Shown one piece after another: positions 1 through 8,435 of a stretch of DNA of 13,274 nt. The DNA is from an uncultured archaeon. GTDB taxonomy: Archaea; Asgardarchaeota; Thorarchaeia; Thorarchaeales; Thorarchaeaceae. The stretch is taken from the NCBI GenBank assembly GCA_964610875.1, contig CAZSWP010000063.1, positions 1-13,274 of the forward strand, written 5' to 3'. The stretch's first letter is position 1. The number at the start of each line of letters is the position of its first letter. A program made the position numbers and the translations under genes. The notes under the pieces were generated by a model. The model saw only the letters and a program-made list of their open reading frames with translations. It was not told the DNA's origin and ran no database searches.

Positions 1-133
1 GCTCAACAGCATGAGGAAAGGGTAAGGTCCTTCACGCAACCTGAATCGATTGCACTAATCCCGTCGAAGGCCCGTACCTCTTCCGGCAATCCCGAAGGAC
101 TGCCAGAACAAGCTGTTGCCTTCCCTGTGGGAA
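1..133 (-). repeat. Structured dispersed repeat, copy 1 (near complete; cut by the left window edge)
   Basis: 20-55 (gggtaaggtccttcacgcaacctgaatcgattgcac) is identical to 12648-12683. Inverted repeats: caacagc 4-10 / gctgttg 112-118; hairpin 85-104 reads GGCAGUCC-UUCG-GGAUUGCC on the minus strand; hairpin ttccc-tgt-gggaa 121-133. Strand assigned from G-U-compatible mismatches. Confidence 0.9.
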
Positions 134-183: not shown

Positions 184-921
184 GTGGTGGATTTGAAAAT
201 GATGATATCTTATCAATATGTTATCTTTCTATCCATATTCTTAACAAGTGTGGTTTTTTGTATTATTGTAGTCGTTAGTAATAAAATGAGATCACTTCAA
301 TATAGAAAAGAAGCATTTTCATTCCATTCTGTTCTCTTCAGTTCAAAAAAAATCCTGACACTACTAATAGTTTCATGCGTACTTTCTACGCTATTGATCT
401 TGGAAATTACACCAGCAGGGGACTTCAATCAAGATTATCAGAACCAAGACACTCGTGTTTTCACTGTAGCGAACTATGACAACTCGACAGACGTAGCCTC
501 AATCAAGGGACAACACAACTTGCTCTTAGATCAGAGGTATTGTATTGTTTTTTCTGACGCAATATATTACAACCCACTGGAAGATGGGTTTCCCAGTATC
601 AATTCATCGTGGGTTCTGAACTACTCATTGAAGGTTTTCCTTATCGGAAACGCGACCATATTGATGAGGTTCTATGTCTATAATATCGACAGGGAATTTC
701 TGGGAGAGTCTCATATAATTGTCAAGAGTTCAATACACGAAGGTTCTGTAAGTGACTCGATTACTAGAAATACTACAGATATTCTGGACTACTATTGCTT
801 AGCGGGAGCTGAATACAACACAAGACTGGCATTCATCTCAATTCTGAGTGGAAATTCAGAAGTGAGTGACATTGATAGTGCAAATCCAGCTACTTTACGG
901 CTAATATCGGCATCCATTTGA
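184..921 (+). CDS. Hypothetical membrane-anchored protein
   Basis: 245-aa ORF with two N-terminal hydrophobic segments followed by a beta-rich soluble region; no recognisable motif; true start uncertain. Confidence 0.7.
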   Translation: MVDLKMMISYQYVIFLSIFLTSVVFCIIVVVSNKMRSLQYRKEAFSFHSVLFSSKKILTLLIVSCVLSTLLILEITPAGDFNQDYQNQDTRVFTVANYDNSTDVASIKGQHNLLLDQRYCIVFSDAIYYNPLEDGFPSINSSWVLNYSLKVFLIGNATILMRFYVYNIDREFLGESHIIVKSSIHEGSVSDSITRNTTDILDYYCLAGAEYNTRLAFISILSGNSEVSDIDSANPATLRLISASI

Positions 922-941
922 AACCATCAGGTCCATCTTAG

Positions 942-1610
942 TTAAATGACCCTCCCATCACGTAGACGCACTTCTCGATCCATACAGTGTCCAATTTCTA
1001 AATCATGAGTAGCAACAATTAATATACCATTCATCTTCTGTACAAGTTGTTTCATCATTTCAACGACCAACAAACCGGTTTTTGAATCCAATTGTCCTGT
1101 AGGTTCATCAGCAAGAACAACCACAGGATTATTCGCTAAAGCTCTCGCTAGTGCAACTCGCTGTCTTTCACCACCAGATAATTCGCTTGGAAGATGATTA
1201 CTTCGATTAATAAGATTCACTGATTCAAGTAAAGAATTGACTCTTTTTGTTCGCATTGTTTTTTGTGTCCCGGCAGCTAATAGAGGTAGTTCAATATTCT
1301 CAAATGCAGTAAGATAAGGAATAAGATTGTGCATTTGAAATATGAATCCAACCTTGAAACGACGATAGATGGTTGTTTCAGACTCGCCCAATTCTGTAAT
1401 TGATTTCCCTCCAACAGAAATGTCACCAGATGTTGGTAAATCCAAAGCACCAAGAAGAGAAAGAAGGGTCGTTTTTCCAGATCCTGACGGTCCGGTTACT
1501 GCAATGCTTTCACCTTCATTGAATGATAAATTTACTTCTTTCAAAGCTTGAATGCATCTTTGACCAATTTGATATTCTTTTGTTACTTCAGAGATTTCAA
1601 TCATAGACAT
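942..1610 (-). CDS. ABC transporter ATP-binding protein, LolD/MacB/SalX family
   Basis: Walker A GPSGSGKT, Q-loop GFIFQ, signature LSGGE, Walker B VVLADEPTGQLD, H-loop ATHD. Confidence 0.96.
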   Translation of the reverse strand: MSMIEISEVTKEYQIGQRCIQALKEVNLSFNEGESIAVTGPSGSGKTTLLSLLGALDLPTSGDISVGGKSITELGESETTIYRRFKVGFIFQMHNLIPYLTAFENIELPLLAAGTQKTMRTKRVNSLLESVNLINRSNHLPSELSGGERQRVALARALANNPVVVLADEPTGQLDSKTGLLVVEMMKQLVQKMNGILIVATHDLEIGHCMDREVRLRDGRVI

Positions 1611-1619
1611 TCATTTCCC

Positions 1620-4256
1620 TCATTGCATTTCGTTTTTGATTAAATCTACCAGATTCTTCTTTCGAAGATACATCACAGCTATTAATGTGGTGATAATTAT
1701 GCTAAAAAGACAAGGTATACATACTATCAGAAAATCAAACATAGGAATTACTTCACCAAGAAAAATGAAAGGAACTTGTATTGTGGGATAACCTAGTAAT
1801 TCACCAAGAATTAGAGGAAAATACAATATTGAAATACAGATTAGTCCACCAATAAATCCCATTAAAATGATTATCAGACTCTCAAAGAAAATAATTCCAT
1901 AAATTTGTATTGAAGTAAATCCCACAGATTTCAGTATTCCATATACATATCGATTTGTGATTATCTTTGAAATTTGAGTCGTTCCTACAATTAGAAGGAT
2001 ACTTGTGATTGTTACAAACATTACCAAGTTCAGAAGTTTGGAAATAGCTACAAACCTCTCAGTGTAAGCATTCAATTCTTCTTCAGCAGACAAAGCATAG
2101 AATGAATCAGTTAACATAGAAATCTGTTTTATTACTTCTTCATACTTCGTGGAATCATCCAACCCAATTAGAATTCGGTCTATTTCATAAATCTCCGTAC
2201 TTTCAATGATTTGAGGGCTTAAAAAGATGCCAGGATTTTTCGAGGGGATTCCTGGCATATTATCGACAATAGAACTGATAGTGAAATTTCTCGAAATTTG
2301 GGACACAATACCAATCTCAGATATGTCAGCTAAGCTGATAGAAACCGATTCGCCCACTTCTTTACATAGAAACCGCGCAAGATTTGTGCTTATGATAAGA
2401 GAACTAGGATTTGTCAGAAGCTTTGCTGCAGTTTCTATTGTATTATTATCAATAGAATCGAATTTTACGACATCTTGATAATCCACTCCTGTAATGAAAT
2501 AAGAGATGATTTCACCATCTTCAGGGATTTCTGAAACATTGTTGACATATGTGTATGCAAGGGAAGATCTCCTAATAGGACAAATTTTTCTGACATTTGG
2601 AACATCTTTTAACGAGTCAATAATACTCTCATTACTAATACCACTTATTTGGATATCTCCTCCAAGACGCATATACACATTTGGAGTTTGTTGATAACGG
2701 ATTCCCATAGCAGCGGTGGATGACAATATTACCAATAATAGACATAAGGCTATGGCTATGATATTAGACGTTATATGTTTACTATTTGATTTGATTGATT
2801 GAAATGCAATCTTAAAGTGTGCAAATCGAGATGAATCTACAATTCCGTATGAGTTTCTGTTAGATGAATTTGATGAAAATAAAAACCGTAAAATAGAAAT
2901 CATAAGTAAAAACGCAGATACTGTAGCTAGTATAGGCAAAAAATGAGTTAATGATGCTGAAAAGGGAATAATTCCACCAAACAGGTTAAGTATGACATAT
3001 CCAATGAAAAAGGGAATTACAAATTTCAATGATTTTTTCTCTTTAGAATGATTTACCCTTGGACATAATGCCATCTGAGGACTTCCAGATGTTCCTTTTA
3101 TAGATGGATACGCACCTGCCAAGATGACAATGAAAAAGCCAAGTGCTACTACAACAAGAGATGATAGTGAAAAACGAATTTGTAAAGAAGAGGGTGAAGA
3201 TAACCCGAACTCTGAAATGATATTTTGGTAAGAATTTAGGAAAAGTTTTCTTGATACATCCATGAGAAAGGGAGAAAGAAAGTTAAAAGTACCGATTGAG
3301 AATATCAAGGAGAATAATATACCAATTGGCCCGATTACTAGTGGTATATAGAAGAAAATTCTCTTGATTTGATTTTTCGAAAAGCCAATCGCGTATAAGA
3401 CGCCTACTTCATGGAGTACTTCATAAATACTAATTGTTACTAGACTGTACGTAGCAGTAAACGCAGATAGTAAAGAACAACAAAATAATATTGTTAACAA
3501 AAAATGTGAATTCTCAAGTGCTTCGAGTATAGGGCGAGAATAAGCAATTTTAGGAGTGATTACATTCGCTGACGGAAATTTATGTTCAATATCCAATGCA
3601 AAATTAGTCACCAATTCGTTATTTTGTACATGTTCCCGTATTAGTTTTATTCCAAGATAGTTTGAAAAACCCGAAATGCCTGTTGCTTTGAGGATTGAAT
3701 CATGTGATATACATAACATACTTGATGCTTGTCCGATTTCATGAACAATTCCACAGATTACAAAACTTCTACTAAGGTTTAGTGTTTGAATATCTACACT
3801 AATTACATCGCCAATTTCTACTAACAATACTGATGCAAGTTGATGTCCGAGGGCAACCATTTCTGAAGTATTTGGTAATGATCCAGAATCTATCACTAAT
3901 CCATTGAACCACGTATCTTCATCTGTCGAAACAATGAATCGACAACTACGATAGGTTCCTGCTAATTCATTGGTAACTCTACTATATACGTTGATTCTGG
4001 GTTCGAATTTCTCAATTAACTGATTATCGATTTCGCTAATCGCATCAATAGTAACATTGGTTGATTTGAAATCATGAAAAGTAATAGATATATCATCAAT
4101 ACCTCGATTATCCAATTCAACATTCACTGCATATGCAGCATTTTCCATCACTAATGAAACATTCAGAGGAAGACTAATAGATATGGCAATAGCCAAAATT
4201 GTAATTATTGTTCTTACTCTTTGCTTCCTTATTATTTTGAATGAAATTCTAAGCAT
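1620..4256 (-). CDS. ABC transporter permease, FtsX/MacB-like with two fused repeats
   Basis: 878 aa with twice TM - large extracellular domain - 3 TM; FtsX-like motifs EVGVLYAIGFSKNQI and YGILKSVGFTSIQI; ends 9 bp before the ATPase start. Confidence 0.92.
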   Translation of the reverse strand: MLRISFKIIRKQRVRTIITILAIAISISLPLNVSLVMENAAYAVNVELDNRGIDDISITFHDFKSTNVTIDAISEIDNQLIEKFEPRINVYSRVTNELAGTYRSCRFIVSTDEDTWFNGLVIDSGSLPNTSEMVALGHQLASVLLVEIGDVISVDIQTLNLSRSFVICGIVHEIGQASSMLCISHDSILKATGISGFSNYLGIKLIREHVQNNELVTNFALDIEHKFPSANVITPKIAYSRPILEALENSHFLLTILFCCSLLSAFTATYSLVTISIYEVLHEVGVLYAIGFSKNQIKRIFFYIPLVIGPIGILFSLIFSIGTFNFLSPFLMDVSRKLFLNSYQNIISEFGLSSPSSLQIRFSLSSLVVVALGFFIVILAGAYPSIKGTSGSPQMALCPRVNHSKEKKSLKFVIPFFIGYVILNLFGGIIPFSASLTHFLPILATVSAFLLMISILRFLFSSNSSNRNSYGIVDSSRFAHFKIAFQSIKSNSKHITSNIIAIALCLLLVILSSTAAMGIRYQQTPNVYMRLGGDIQISGISNESIIDSLKDVPNVRKICPIRRSSLAYTYVNNVSEIPEDGEIISYFITGVDYQDVVKFDSIDNNTIETAAKLLTNPSSLIISTNLARFLCKEVGESVSISLADISEIGIVSQISRNFTISSIVDNMPGIPSKNPGIFLSPQIIESTEIYEIDRILIGLDDSTKYEEVIKQISMLTDSFYALSAEEELNAYTERFVAISKLLNLVMFVTITSILLIVGTTQISKIITNRYVYGILKSVGFTSIQIYGIIFFESLIIILMGFIGGLICISILYFPLILGELLGYPTIQVPFIFLGEVIPMFDFLIVCIPCLFSIIITTLIAVMYLRKKNLVDLIKNEMQ

Positions 4257-4282
4257 TTTATGGATTCACTTCTTTTCATAAT

Positions 4283-4311
4283 AAAAATGAGTGCGCAGTT
4301 TGCACACTCAT
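4283..4311 (-). terminator. Hairpin plus U-tract, putative terminator
   Basis: Minus strand ATGAGTGTGCA-AAC-TGCGCACTCAT (11 bp, one G-U) running into a T-tract; lies 24 nt after the restored stop (4335) of the upstream gene. Confidence 0.6.
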
Positions 4312-4334
4312 ATTAAATGTCTTTAAATTCTTGA

Positions 4335-5139
4335 TTAGAATCCAAGATCATTGTCGTATTCTAGGGCTTCCAGAAGATATAGCTTGCAGTCTGATGATGG
4401 TGAATCATCCCCCATAATGAAGGTGTTAGTATATGAGTACTCCCGATCAGCAAGCATAAGGGATACCGTACCAATATGCCTTGAACCACATTTCAGTCTT
4501 GATTTTTACTGCAAATCTGTGGGTATCATAGGAACCAGCATCTTCATTTGGAATTCCGATTTTCACACTAACAACAAAATCATTCTGAGTAACACCGCCA
4601 GTAGCCATAACAATCTGAATCTGGCCTAAGTGACAATATCCTCCTGAATTTGTATCATCAAGATCCCATGAATGTGTTTGAATTTCTGTACTTGAACCGG
4701 AAATCGAAAACCCAATGTCGCCACGGATCTTGTAGTTCTCGTTGTCACCATATTCCCCACGAACTCCTGCTTTTCCTTCAATTGTAAGTTTCGTCCCATA
4801 AGTTGAGGAATGCATTGCATAATCGGCTAATTCCATCCAATCTGCAGCCCAACCCAAAGTTAGATCTCTGACATAGACATCAATCAATAGCTCTCTAGGT
4901 TCATAGTGCCAACCGAAAGTCCCCTGTTCTTGATAGCCTTGAGCTTTAATATAGACTGGGAACTCTGTAATACCTCCTGCATCAACATACCACATATCGA
5001 GAGGTACCTTAACCCATATATCCCTAGCAGTGCTATCGTATATTTCTTGTCCGTATGATGTTACTGCATAGGCAAAAAGTGGTATGATAAGAATAATGCC
5101 CAGAGTTAATATCCAAATTCTTCGATTTGTTTTTCTCAT
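4335..5139 (-). pseudogene. Secreted/membrane-tethered hypothetical protein, probably frameshifted near its 3' end (called ORF 4447-5139; restored end 4335)
   Basis: Signal-like N-terminus MRKTNRRIWILTLGIILIIPLFAYA. Tandem AGCA-AGCA at 4449-4456; removing one copy extends the frame as ...GIPYADREYSYTNTFIMGDDSPSSDCKLYLLEALEYDNDLGF* to TAA 4335-4337. The ORF itself is well supported, the frameshift is inferred. Confidence 0.6.
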
Positions 5140-5295
5140 TTTTTTTCTCCATTTTGTAAAACTAAGAGTTTTACTCTCCTTGTATCCACTAGATAGAAGG
5201 AAGTCTTACATCCCCAATTACTACGTGCAAATAATGTAAAATGATTTAAAATATAAAAGAATTTCCTCTAAAGCAACAATGGTATATTGTAAAAA

Positions 5296-5406
5296 TGAAA
5301 AGGGCGCTCAACAATGTGAGGAGAGGGGAAGTACCTTAATACCTGACCCCGTATGCCATGTACGAATACAGTCCTGAGGGTAGTATATACATCCCGTTTG
5401 AGAGGT
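5296..5406 (-). repeat. Structured dispersed repeat, copy 2 (divergent interior)
   Basis: tgaaaagggcgctcaaca (5296-5313) matches copies 3 and 4; then tgaggagaggggaagtacctt resembles tgaggaaagggtaaggtcctt; conserved atcccgt at 5391-5397; internal hairpin tgta-cgaa-taca 5359-5370 (UUCG loop on minus). Right boundary approximate. Confidence 0.75.
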
Positions 5407-5563: not shown

Positions 5564-6541
5564 ATGCGAAAAAAAAACAATCTAAGAGTGATTGTGCTAT
5601 ATGGTATATTACCACTGCTTTTGGTTTCAACAATAATCATACCTGTGATTTTTCAGTCAACAATAGTTGATGCTAGAACAAATGAGAGTACACTTGATGG
5701 GTATTCCCTCTTAAAGTGGTCACCGATTATACCTATTGGTATCTTGACTCCGGAATCCTCTGGACATTTAAAAGATGAGTATGATGTTGTTTACGACGTC
5801 CTAGATGGGCTCAACGATGATTTCGGAACTCATATCTCAATCTACCGGAAAGCTGGTAGTTCCGCTACAGAGTATGGTCTAAAATACCTGTTGAGGTACA
5901 CAGAGAGAACTCATGTTTCATCACATGGACAATATCATTCAACATACAAATCTGGTGTTGATTTGTATAATGGATACATCTATTCAAGTGATGTGAATTA
6001 TTGGTCAATTTCAAGTCCGAAATCTGATCTTCTATTTCTAAGTGCATGTGAAAGCTTAGGGTACAACGGACATACAGAGTCCTCTCTCGCAAGCAGTATT
6101 TGCTCTAAATCTTCTGTTGATATGGTAGTTGGATATAATGATGTTGTTGATGCATATTCAGCAACTTACATAGCTCATAAATTCTGGTGGTTCTTAACAA
6201 GAGCTGCTGAACCATACGGAGGTTTTGACGGGCATACTTCTTTTAATTTGGCTCAAGCTTCATGTCAGGGACATATTGATGGACTTGAGGCAGCTGCATC
6301 GTTAGGTGCTTCCGCAATTATTGCTCTTGCAGGAGCTGCTGTTGGAGGGGAGGTTGGACTTCTTCTTGGGGCAATTCTAGGTGAGTTAGCTGAACAGGCT
6401 CTTCTTGAGTTGACTGCAGGGGACTGGATTGAATTGCAACAGGATACACATGATGCCTTTGAGTACTATGGAGAGGTGTATGTACCTGAGTTAGTTTGGA
6501 CTGGTGGCGGTGATCCCTGGGGTAAAGATTTACCGTTCTAG
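5564..6541 (+). CDS. Secreted protein with putative caspase/CHAT-like (His-Cys) domain and hydrophobic Gly/Ala-rich C-terminal helices
   Basis: Basic-hydrophobic N-terminus; HVSSHG ... LLFLSACES ... MVVGYNDVVDA follows the caspase-hemoglobinase fold pattern; C-terminal AAASLGASAIIALAGAAVGGEVGLLLGAILG; purine-rich SD-like gagaggag upstream. Confidence 0.7.
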   Translation: MRKKNNLRVIVLYGILPLLLVSTIIIPVIFQSTIVDARTNESTLDGYSLLKWSPIIPIGILTPESSGHLKDEYDVVYDVLDGLNDDFGTHISIYRKAGSSATEYGLKYLLRYTERTHVSSHGQYHSTYKSGVDLYNGYIYSSDVNYWSISSPKSDLLFLSACESLGYNGHTESSLASSICSKSSVDMVVGYNDVVDAYSATYIAHKFWWFLTRAAEPYGGFDGHTSFNLAQASCQGHIDGLEAAASLGASAIIALAGAAVGGEVGLLLGAILGELAEQALLELTAGDWIELQQDTHDAFEYYGEVYVPELVWTGGGDPWGKDLPF

Positions 6542-6570
6542 AACACTGTAGAATGTTGGAGTTGTATTGA

Positions 6571-7887
6571 GTGAGTCGAGTGTCAAGATATGAAAAAACG
6601 ATATGCATAGTATTTGCGATTATGCTTCTGTTTGTTCTTTGTCATTTGCCTCACTCAAATTCATTTTCTTCTCAGGAGGAAACTGAAGAAAATCAGATTT
6701 CACTAGCACAATTTACAAAGAGCAGAGAGCAAGCAATTGTCGACTATTTGACTGCGCTTTATGATGAGAAGGGCTACTTTCATTATTCACTGAGTGCACC
6801 ACCTTATGAGGGGCTGTTAGGACTCTATCCAGGTTTAGTAGATATTTATGATGGCTATCTAACACTTAATACACTCGATTCAATCAACAAAATTGACTTG
6901 AATGAAAGCAAAGACCTTCTTGAAAATCTAATCAATACTGATGTAGATTCAGAGTTTTTTGGATTAATTAATGACTCGCATAGCATTGGCCCAAATGTAG
7001 CTGGACTTTACACAGGTCTGGCGTTATTCCAAGGCTTTGGTATGATGGATTTGCTTGACTTGGAGTTGATAGCAAATTGGGTTGCATCTTGTCAACAGAC
7101 AGATGGAGGATTCTCATCCAATATTGAATTTACAGCATCACGAATTACGTATACCTATTTTGCAATTGAACTTCTTTCGCAATTTGAATACTTGGATAGG
7201 ATTAATACAGACACTTGTGTTTCGTTTGTTTTGGATTGTATCAACTCAGACGGTGGTTTTGGAAATAGTCCTAGTAGCGAATCAGATTCAGAAATAACTC
7301 CACTTGGTTTGATGGTACTGGAAACTCTTGGAAGTAAAACTGAGATAAATGAGACTTCAATCTTGAAATTTGAACTCGATAATTGGGATAATGAAACTGG
7401 AAGTAACATTGAGGGTTCGATTGTAGAAACAGAAAGAAGTTTGTGGTCTTTTTCTCTCTTAGATTCATTGAATCTTATTAATACTGAACAGGCTATTGAA
7501 TGGATTCTCTCATGCCAATCACATCAAGATGGGTCTTTCAGAATGTATCCTGATGACGATAGCGATAGATTAGAATTCTGCCGAGCTGCTGTTCATTCTC
7601 TCGAACTCCTGAATTCTCTAGATTCTTTAATAGCAACATTTACGGTTCAAGTCGAACCAGTGTGGGAAATACCTCAATGGTACTTGGATAGAATATCTGA
7701 TTTGACCGACACCACAAGTGAAAATCCTGGTGAATCTTTTATCATTCCAGATATGACATGGTTAGTAAATGGACTAATTTCGATAGCTCCTTTCTCAATC
7801 TGTCTTATACCACTTCTATATTACGTATATGTAGATAAACAAGAAAAAGCGGAGCGACGTCAGATAAAGAAAAGAAGAAAGAGATGA
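6571..7887 (+). CDS. Exported, C-terminally anchored prenyltransferase/squalene-cyclase repeat (alpha/alpha barrel) protein
   Basis: QW-like repeats WVASCQQTDGGF, FVLDCINSDGGF, WILSCQSHQDGSF; N-terminal signal-like segment; C-terminal TM followed by basic tail KKRRKR. Confidence 0.85.
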   Translation: MSRVSRYEKTICIVFAIMLLFVLCHLPHSNSFSSQEETEENQISLAQFTKSREQAIVDYLTALYDEKGYFHYSLSAPPYEGLLGLYPGLVDIYDGYLTLNTLDSINKIDLNESKDLLENLINTDVDSEFFGLINDSHSIGPNVAGLYTGLALFQGFGMMDLLDLELIANWVASCQQTDGGFSSNIEFTASRITYTYFAIELLSQFEYLDRINTDTCVSFVLDCINSDGGFGNSPSSESDSEITPLGLMVLETLGSKTEINETSILKFELDNWDNETGSNIEGSIVETERSLWSFSLLDSLNLINTEQAIEWILSCQSHQDGSFRMYPDDDSDRLEFCRAAVHSLELLNSLDSLIATFTVQVEPVWEIPQWYLDRISDLTDTTSENPGESFIIPDMTWLVNGLISIAPFSICLIPLLYYVYVDKQEKAERRQIKKRRKR

Positions 7888-7977: not shown

Positions 7978-8301
7978 TTGGATATTCATAGGTCCAAGTC
8001 GGATCCTTTTTTACAACTAGACAGTGAACAAATTACATGCATCCTCCAACAGGATGGAAAAGCGGTCAGATGGAAATTACGCTCAACAGTGACTAAGGAG
8101 ATCATTCATTCAGCCGCCATGGTCTTTAATCAAGAAAAACCAGAGGCCGAGAAGACGGTGGAGGTCTTCAAAGAACGCCTGGAGTATTTTGTAACAAAAT
8201 ACTTTGGAACTCACGAGAAACTATCTGTCAGAGTATTCAATTTTGATTCACTATTGGAGCAACTTCAGACTATTCTCAAGCGATTGAGAAGAGAGTGGTA
8301 A
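7978..8301 (+). CDS. Hypothetical protein, probably 5'-truncated or frameshifted
   Basis: 107-aa ORF from TTG; the frame is open back to 7894 without an ATG; stop lies 33 bp before repeat copy 3. Confidence 0.45.
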   Translation: MDIHRSKSDPFLQLDSEQITCILQQDGKAVRWKLRSTVTKEIIHSAAMVFNQEKPEAEKTVEVFKERLEYFVTKYFGTHEKLSVRVFNFDSLLEQLQTILKRLRREW

Positions 8302-8334
8302 CGAACCTGGAATCGACTCAGCTGACTAAGAATA

Positions 8335-8420
8335 TGAAAAAGGGCGCTCAACAGTGGAGGGGGGTAAGGTCCTTCACGCAACCGTCTGATTGCACTATCC
8401 CGTCGAAGGCCCGTATCCCT
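8335..8420 (-). repeat. Structured dispersed repeat, copy 3 (truncated on the right)
   Basis: tgaaaaagggcgctcaacag ... gggtaaggtccttcacgcaacc (8362-8383, identical to 20-41) ... atcccgtcgaaggcccgta; lacks the UUCG hairpin present in copies 1 and 5. Confidence 0.9.
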
Positions 8421-8435
8421 GAGAGAATCATGAAG

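What the first reader, a model, noticed from the sequence alone, without database searches (positions are those of the whole stretch)
1..133. The repeat is a conserved multi-stem fold on the minus strand: candidate new ncRNA or ssDNA motif
Minus strand of copy 1, 5'->3': hairpin UUCCC-ACA-GGGAA; closing strand CAACAGC; hairpin GGCAGUCC-UUCG-GGAUUGCC; long stem GGAAGAGGUACGGGCCUUC / GAAGGACCUUACCCUUUCC with an unpaired GACGGGAUUA segment and apical hairpin GUGCAAUC-GAUUCA-GGUUGCGU; closing strand GCUGUUG; other copies then continue AGCGCCCUUUUCA into U-rich sequence. Copy 5 keeps two hairpins at the same positions with largely different stem sequence (UUCUACUUC-UUA-GAGGUAGAA; UUCACAGUUC-UUCG-GGACUGUGAA). 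Copy 4 changes an A-U to G-U in the apical stem; copies 3 and 4 change only its loop (AGAC). These mismatches are A-C on plus but G-U on minus, and cUUCGg is a known extra-stable RNA tetraloop. So structure on one strand, not sequence, appears to be selected. I cannot match it to tRNA, 5S, SRP, a riboswitch or a ribozyme.
Basis: partly seen in the sequence, partly recalled or inferred. Interest (0 to 1): 0.8.

Follow-up and report, generated by a model that had tools for sequence, protein, structure and literature searches.

The report
16S-tail copies left by RNA-guided element
The folded repeat is not a new RNA gene: it is a set of clipped spare copies of the tail of this Asgard archaeon's 16S ribosomal RNA gene, most likely left behind each time a mobile element with an RNA-guided nuclease aimed at that gene inserted new genes there.

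Summary
The repeat is real (5 copies here, at least 13 in the genome). It is the 3' trailer of the Thorarchaeota 16S rRNA gene. It follows Rfam-confirmed 16S genes in relatives and pairs with the 16S 5' leader through compensatory changes. Window copies are 5'-clipped direct repeats separating toxin-antitoxin and other cargo in an array that starts at the 16S gene. The scan found such arrays before (at least 7 notes, enzyme unknown) and the guide array once. Tested here: the neighbouring element encodes a giant Cas1/Cas4-like protein and a TnpB whose guides match four 16S sites next to a CGGAT-like motif. Copy left ends cluster near the predicted cut of guide 3 in intron-less alleles (13/36, versus 0/13 where an intron splits that target). 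No copy extends past the guide-2 site. A remnant of the Cas1-like gene abuts copy 3 in this window. Best model (0.6): RNA-guided cutting of the 16S end plus recombinational repair; tiny introns act as immunity alleles. No cutting or integration was shown.

The parts
1..133 (-). Copy 1 of the 16S 3' trailer. Homology to native trailers covers about 1-118: UUCG hairpin, processing-stem arms, apical hairpin and core. The U-tract and outer arm lie beyond the window, in C44.
5283..5352 (-). Copy 2: short and diverged. Its best native match is a trailer from another genus (G067 type).
7978..8301 (+). C-terminal remnant (about 98 codons) of the giant Cas1/Cas4-like gene. It ends next to copy 3, as the intact gene does next to native trailers.
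   Evidence: 56 of 98 aligned positions identical to the intact gene on G000:C78
8304..8421 (-). Copy 3: 5'-clipped, with core, U-tract and outer arm.
11828..11924 (-). Copy 4: clipped at the apical hairpin; lies downstream of hicA.
12003..12570 (-). HicB-HicA toxin-antitoxin cassette between copies 5 and 4. Homologues at 63-75% aa identity lie in the G002 array with other neighbours.
12617..12836 (-). Copy 5, the longest: decayed 16S helix 45 (about 12836-12807), 32-nt BHB-type intron (12806-12775), anti-SD (12775-12766), trailer hairpins, decayed core. It starts just 3' of the guide-2 site.
12853..13269 (-). PIN/VapC toxin cassette upstream of copy 5. The same cassette plus long copy occurs in G002, G022 and again on C44.
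184..5139 (.). Cargo between copies 2 and 1: ABC ATPase, MacB/FtsX permease and two unknown ORFs.
5564..7887 (+). Cargo between copies 3 and 2: unknown ORF and a prenyltransferase-toroid membrane protein.
8436..11687 (-). Cargo between copies 4 and 3: YCF48/BNR protein, alpha/beta hydrolase with TSP3 repeats, and an unknown ORF.

Best explanation
SHOWN: each repeat is a duplicate of the Thorarchaeota 16S rRNA 3' end and trailer (3' arm of the leader-trailer processing stem, side hairpins, U-tract). The copies form a head-to-tail array starting at the single 16S gene, with cargo between them. SHOWN: a recurrent element sits right behind the native trailer. It encodes a ~1700-aa protein with a Cas1-like catalytic domain and a Cas4-like nuclease, and a divergent TnpB followed by short repeats with spacers matching four sites in the 16S 3' region. 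INFERRED: TnpB cuts a recipient 16S end at a guide site. The left end is repaired on incoming DNA carrying a 16S end, trailer and whatever lies behind them (the element and/or cargo). The cut-off host end is rejoined behind the new DNA, either by end joining (host-type copy starting at the cut) or by annealing to the donor's next trailer copy (mosaic copy). Each round adds one cassette and one clipped copy. Small BHB introns inside the target sites make an allele immune, so intron alleles and linked cargo spread like a homing drive. Ordinary recombination between copies then reshuffles cassettes, and toxin-antitoxin modules resist deletion.
For: Identity: Rfam 16S lies directly upstream in G001, G002, G004 and G020. 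The own leader on C25 is complementary. The 13-bp outer stem has 183/208 Watson-Crick pairs in own leader/trailer pairs versus 158.9 when shuffled, with double changes in several columns. Contiguous 16S-then-array loci occur in G044, G067, G089, G055, G052 and G003. Of 72 copies with a native on hand, 40 match their own genome's trailer best among 27; several are foreign-5'/host-3' mosaics. Right ends lie at +18 to +26 (U-tract) in 73 of 101. Element: trailer-Cas1-like-TnpB-guides order in G068, G077, G093, G095 and G050, and G003 and G002. In G000 the element on C78 abuts a trailer copy and a remnant abuts copy 3. Spacers match 16S at about 1340, 1380, 1499 and the anti-SD, three with an upstream CGGAT and one with AGAAT. 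RuvC D, alternative E and D are 30/30 conserved, a rearrangement PMC10691335 considers active. TnpB cuts 15-21 bp from the TAM (PMC8612924). Left ends at +16 to +24 from the guide-3 TAM: 13/36 for intron-less natives, 0/13 for natives with the 1530 intron (Fisher p 0.009). Ten of those 13 start just 3' of the guide-2 site. 23 of 24 copies holding 16S sequence start at -2 to +15 of that site, the other being a weak alignment, and no 16S fragment further upstream was found in the arrays. G002, G001, G016 and G094 lack all four intact targets. Some guides match intron-bearing alleles of other genomes. Model residues 2-158 align to Cas1 (Z 10.3, rmsd 3.2, 131 residues; top 22 hits all Cas1) and 200-514 to Cas4 (Z 7-8). 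E13, H101 and D112 are conserved.
Against: Arrays exist in G044 (one contig, 86% complete), G067 and G089, where no TnpB of this family was found at E<=1e-60, so the element must have been lost or donor-borne. No copy starts at the 1340 or 1380 guide sites, and the 1380 guide is the only one on G000's C78 element. The guide-3 cut zone coincides with the first trailer hairpin, so a structure-induced break is possible (although intron alleles have that hairpin too). The statistics use related genomes and shared cassettes, with identity filters. Held-out loci gave +19, +28, +30, +31, +37 and -56, but also +2 (G095) and the guide-fused copy at 0 (G065). G003, G050 and G095 keep some intact targets next to near-matching guides. 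Copies 1-4 in this window start well beyond any predicted cut. The profile comparison of the giant protein with Cas1 was not significant.
Confidence: 0.6

Rival explanations
1. RNA-guided integration. The Cas1-like protein itself inserts the element or cargo, attacking at the U-tract end and at the TnpB-marked site, and gap filling duplicates the trailer as a long target-site duplication. The result would be a CRISPR-like array with gene-sized spacers.
For: Cas1 fold with conserved E/H/D. The gene always ends next to the target gene's 3' end: 16S trailer, and tRNA-Asp on C47. Right ends are fixed and many copies are wholly host-type. PMC10691335 proposes aCas1 as the transposase of aCas1-TnpB loci.
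Against: Duplications of 40-240 bp are far longer and more variable than Cas1 or casposase duplications (own knowledge). Mosaic copies need recombination anyway. Cargo cassettes carry no recognisable element ends. No clipped tRNA duplicate was found for the tRNA-Asp or tRNA-Arg elements in G000. The Cas1 N-terminal beta domain was not matched.
Confidence: 0.2
2. No dedicated enzyme. The trailer is a conserved landing pad, and cassettes are added and shuffled by RadA homologous recombination and homology-facilitated illegitimate joining; the TnpB element is just one more cassette.
For: Mosaic copies and shared cassettes in different order. Arrays without the element. This is the reading of several earlier scan notes.
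Against: Does not explain the hard upstream limit at the guide-2 site, the intron-dependent left-end cluster, or why the guides aim at exactly these sites.
Confidence: 0.13
3. Retroposition of processed pre-rRNA trailer fragments (fixed 3' end at the terminator, variable 5' truncation).
For: Fixed right ends at the U-tract and variable left ends. The upstream limit is close to the 1499 splice site.
Against: No RVT_1 gene in five genomes including G000. Copies keep the 1530 intron unspliced (copy 5). Several copies extend into the convergent Cas1-like gene.
Confidence: 0.03
4. One reading: each copy is a functional stand-alone ncRNA or ssDNA motif (or attC-like site) kept for its own fold.
For: Copies 1 and 5 fold below shuffles. 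The core contains a GTTRRRY-type heptamer.
Against: The long stem and closing helix are not conserved. Copies 2-4 do not fold. Lengths range from about 20 to 220 bp. No IntI was found. Copies may still serve as terminators for upstream cargo.
Confidence: 0.04

Closest known systems
Archaeal pre-16S rRNA processing stem (leader/trailer inverted repeat)
   Same: Long leader-trailer helix with covarying pairs, followed by a U-tract.
   Different: No conserved canonical BHB found in the stem. Here the trailer also occurs as many orphan copies.
aCas1-TnpB loci of Asgard archaea (Cas1H-Asgard groups; PMC10691335)
   Same: TnpB with rearranged RuvC-II, a TTCACTCA-like motif downstream of tnpB, and a Cas1-variant neighbour.
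   Different: That paper has no mention of rRNA or tRNA and places the putative guide before the motif. Here spacers follow a GGTCGG repeat after the motif, match 16S with a common TAM, and are linked to introns and cassette arrays.
IS200/IS605/IS607 TnpB homing (PMC8612924, PMC10055086)
   Same: RNA-guided break proposed to drive recombinational copying of the element.
   Different: Several guides aimed at an essential host gene rather than one donor joint; immunity by introns; the host end is displaced into a cargo array; no TnpA at the 16S loci.
Integrons/CALINs and tandem islands at tRNA 3' ends (own knowledge)
   Same: Co-oriented repeats separating reshuffled cassettes rich in toxin-antitoxin modules, growing from one anchor.
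   Different: The repeats are rRNA trailer copies of variable length. No IntI, no attC fold, and no integrase beside the array.
CRISPR-associated transposons homing to tRNA genes; casposons; free-standing homing endonucleases cooperating with introns (own knowledge)
   Same: Targeting of a conserved RNA gene by a short guide or a Cas1-type enzyme; a nuclease outside the intron that protects the site.
   Different: No Tn7 genes, no PolB or terminal inverted repeats; the effector appears to be an active TnpB; long variable duplications.

Membership tests
Archaeal 16S rRNA 3' trailer / processing stem | Lies directly 3' of a 16S gene | tested here: met
   RF01959 directly upstream in relatives; copy 5 holds helix 45 and the anti-SD. 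G000's own 16S 3' half is unassembled.
Archaeal 16S rRNA 3' trailer / processing stem | Pairs with the 5' leader with compensatory changes | tested here: met
Archaeal 16S rRNA 3' trailer / processing stem | Bulge-helix-bulge motif in the stem | tested here: inconclusive
   Strict search found no conserved BHB; relaxed forms not tested
Stand-alone structured ncRNA | Defined ends and a self-contained conserved fold | tested here: not met
   Variable left ends; long stem and closing helix not conserved
Stand-alone structured ncRNA | Discrete transcript | not testable with these tools
Integron / CALIN | Integron integrase IntI | tested here: not met
   TIGR02249: none in 5 genomes; PF00589 genes lie on other contigs than the arrays. 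The genomes are incomplete.
Integron / CALIN | attC palindrome (R''-L''-L'-R') | tested here: not met
   Only a GTTRRRY-type heptamer, whose inverse partner lies in the 16S leader and not in the copy. No attC model was run.
aCas1-TnpB loci (Cas1H-Asgard) | Cas1-variant gene next to tnpB | tested here: met
   By structure: Z 10.3, rmsd 3.2, 131 residues. Sequence profile comparison not significant.
aCas1-TnpB loci (Cas1H-Asgard) | TTCACTCA-type motif downstream of tnpB | tested here: met
aCas1-TnpB loci (Cas1H-Asgard) | Placement in the published Cas1H-Asgard branches | not tested
   Reference sequences not on hand; the aCas1 paper is not held
TnpB RNA-guided nuclease | Complete (or rearranged) RuvC triad | tested here: met
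   D, alternative E and D in 30/30; canonical RuvC-II E replaced by G (PMC10691335)
TnpB RNA-guided nuclease | Guide with TAM-adjacent target | tested here: met
   Four 16S targets with CGGAT or AGAAT upstream
TnpB RNA-guided nuclease | DNA cleavage | not testable with these tools
   Needs an experiment
Archaeal BHB introns | 4-bp central helix between exon 1 and the intron end | tested here: met
   5/5 at 1530 and 10/12 at 1499
Retroposed copies (R2-like or group II) | Reverse transcriptase; spliced copies | tested here: not met
   No PF00078; intron retained in copy 5

The most novel reading that the evidence does not exclude
The Asgard Cas1-like protein and TnpB form an RNA-guided integrase that targets the host 16S gene end. 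It duplicates the trailer as a repeat around gene-sized inserts, giving a CRISPR-like array of whole genes, and it is locked in an arms race with tiny rRNA introns that act as resistance alleles.
Probability: 0.22. Interest if true: 0.93.

Novelty: new variant of a known kind. Interest (0 to 1): 0.75.

Why it matters
If true, it gives the unexplained Asgard aCas1-TnpB loci a concrete target, TAM and product, so their function can be tested directly. It offers a reason why tiny ORF-less introns persist at fixed places in an rRNA gene: they would give immunity to a nuclease encoded outside them. It explains a lineage-wide gene-capture hotspot that looks like an integron but has no integrase. Practically, these clipped 16S ends break assemblies and can mimic extra rRNA fragments.

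Tried and rejected
Rfam on the window gave only chance hits, and ARAGORN found nothing. Group II intron, ribozyme and riboswitch readings were dropped once the 16S context appeared. No reverse transcriptase, no IntI, and no tyrosine recombinase on the array contigs. The giant protein gave no Pfam, NCBIfam or Atlas hit and no Foldseek hit at E<=0.001; hhalign and hmmsearch against 7 Cas1 sequences were not significant, so the Cas1 call rests on the structure alignment and conserved residues. The BHB search in the leader-trailer stem was negative. I first took the motif 25-45 nt past the U-tract for an element end. It pairs with the leader and is absent at the tRNA-Asp element, so I treat it as host trailer. 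No clipped tRNA duplicates were found for the tRNA-linked elements. Literature searches found no description of these arrays or of 16S-targeting TnpB guides; subscription papers are largely missing from the library.

Full report
OBSERVATION. The window is a whole contig (G000:C63) of an Asgard genome; exact-match relatives are Ca. Thorarchaeota. Five co-oriented copies lie at 1-133, 5283-5352, 8304-8421, 11828-11924 and 12617-12836. At least 13 copies exist in the genome, only on C63, C44, C111, C68 and C122. The ends of C63, C44, C111 and C68 break inside copies.

WHAT THE REPEAT IS. In relatives the same sequence follows a 16S rRNA gene directly (Rfam RF01959). Copy 5 still carries a decayed helix 45, a 32-nt intron and the anti-Shine-Dalgarno sequence. 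G000's 16S 3' half is unassembled, but its 5' leader on C25 is complementary to the repeat. Across 16 genomes the outer 13-bp helix has 183 of 208 Watson-Crick pairs in own leader-trailer pairs, against 158.9 when partners are shuffled, with double changes in several columns (not corrected for kinship). The closing strand occurs in no native trailer. So the repeat is the pre-16S 3' trailer. No conserved canonical BHB was found in the stem.

THE ARRAY. Contiguous loci read 16S, trailer, cargo, clipped copy, cargo and so on: 5 extra copies in G044, 7 in G067, 6 in G089, at least 11 in G055 and 5 in G003; none in G001, G019 or G094 within the stretches fetched. Cargo is often a single toxin-antitoxin module (ParE, PIN, HicAB), shared between genera in different order. 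Four of five PIN genes in G000 lie in the arrays. Of 72 copies with a native on hand, 40 match their own genome's trailer best among 27, and several are foreign at the 5' side and host-like at the 3' side. Right ends fall at the U-tract (73 of 101). Left ends vary, but 23 of 24 copies with 16S sequence start within -2 to +15 of one site near position 1499 (the other is a weak alignment), and no 16S piece further upstream was found in any array.

THE LIKELY DRIVER. Behind the native trailer of G001, G003, G050, G068, G077, G093, G094 and G095, and behind the second copy in G002, lies a convergent ~1700-aa gene and a divergent tnpB. In G000 the pair on C78 ends at a trailer copy. The ORF at window 7978-8301 is the last 98 codons of that gene (56 identical), next to copy 3. 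A model of its first 640 residues aligns to the Cas1 catalytic domain (residues 2-158, Z 10.3, rmsd 3.2; top 22 hits all Cas1) and to Cas4/RecB nucleases (200-514, Z 7-8). E13, H101 and D112 are conserved; sequence profiles alone do not show the relation. This fits the aCas1-TnpB loci of PMC10691335, where rRNA and tRNA are not mentioned. Downstream of tnpB, a GGTCGG repeat precedes spacers that match 16S at about 1340, 1380, 1499 and the anti-SD; three targets have CGGAT upstream and one AGAAT. The TnpB has the rearranged RuvC site thought to be active. Small BHB introns sit inside these targets. G001, G002, G016 and G094 have none of the four targets intact, and some guides match other genomes' intron junctions. 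In G065 the last repeat is fused to a whole clipped trailer.

TEST OF THE LINK. TnpB cuts 15-21 bp from the TAM (PMC8612924). Among well-aligned copies, 13 of 36 whose best native lacks the 1530 intron start at +16 to +24 from that TAM, and none of those 36 starts earlier. Of 13 whose native has the intron, none starts there and 10 start just 3' of the guide-2 site (Fisher p 0.009). Caveats: kinship, shared cassettes, identity filters, and overlap with the first hairpin. Held-out loci partly agree (+19, +28 to +37, -56) with exceptions (+2, 0). Unexplained: no copies start at the 1340 or 1380 sites (a longer copy would hold the guide-2 target and might be re-cut; inference), and arrays exist in genomes where the element was not found.

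MECHANISM AND RIVALS. Best (0.6): guided cutting of the 16S end, repair on donor DNA that brings a new end, trailer and cargo, and rejoining of the displaced host end behind it; later reshuffling by recombination between copies. Rivals: direct integration by the Cas1-like protein with a long duplication (0.2); recombination alone (0.13); stand-alone RNA or attC-like site (0.04); retroposition (0.03). The identity of the repeat (about 0.97) does not depend on the mechanism.

NOVELTY. The fold itself is ordinary rRNA spacer. The array was noted at least seven times in this scan on other genomes with the enzyme unknown, and the guide array once. I reached the array and the guides before reading those notes. 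The literature I could search describes neither. All activity remains inferred.

Noticed in passing
G000:C3:148847-152503 with C47:23255-25830; C37:33100-36072 with C104:634-3909: Other Cas1-like/TnpB pairs end next to tRNA-Asp and tRNA-Arg. The C3 spacer matches 17 nt of the tRNA-Asp anticodon region and the C37 spacer partly matches tRNA-Arg. The contig joins are inferred, not shown.
   Followed up: partly
L126, L127, L129, L130, L132, L133: Another TnpB clade has a spacer complementary to the CMQC-coding stretch of an mvhD-like gene that lies just downstream in several loci (read by eye).
   Followed up: no
G000:C18:16218-24704 and 60669-67782: Two elements with an IS607-like MerR/resolvase gene, a ~1800-aa relative of the Cas1-like protein and a TnpB-like gene (the resolvase was identified by eye).
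   Followed up: no
G000:C44:21480-23617: A second short array in the opposite orientation, about 18 kb from the first: an inversion or a misassembly.
   Followed up: no
window 12853-13269 and G000:C44:2900-3316: The same PIN/VapC cassette plus long trailer copy occurs twice in this genome (93% aa identity).
   Followed up: partly
window 8436-11687: The YCF48, hydrolase-TSP3 and unknown-ORF block has paralogues on C44 (3611-6113 and 23804-24937) and in the G014 array.
   Followed up: no
L103:1351-2031 (G094 16S gene): An ORF inside a large 16S intron looks like a LAGLIDADG homing endonuclease (by eye). Several 16S genes in the family are over 2.1 kb.
   Followed up: no
G000:C25:57200-57260 and leaders in L058-L087: A conserved box-C-like stretch in the 16S 5' leader upstream of the processing stem.
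   Followed up: no
G000:C25:56613-57008: A tnpB fragment with its RNA motif lies just upstream of the 16S leader.
   Followed up: no
L025:234-824 and homologues in G044, G067, G085, G089: A DUF1801/YdeI-OmdA cassette with the same junction at 16S position ~1498 occurs in several genera, often at the far end of the array; probably an old insertion.
   Followed up: partly
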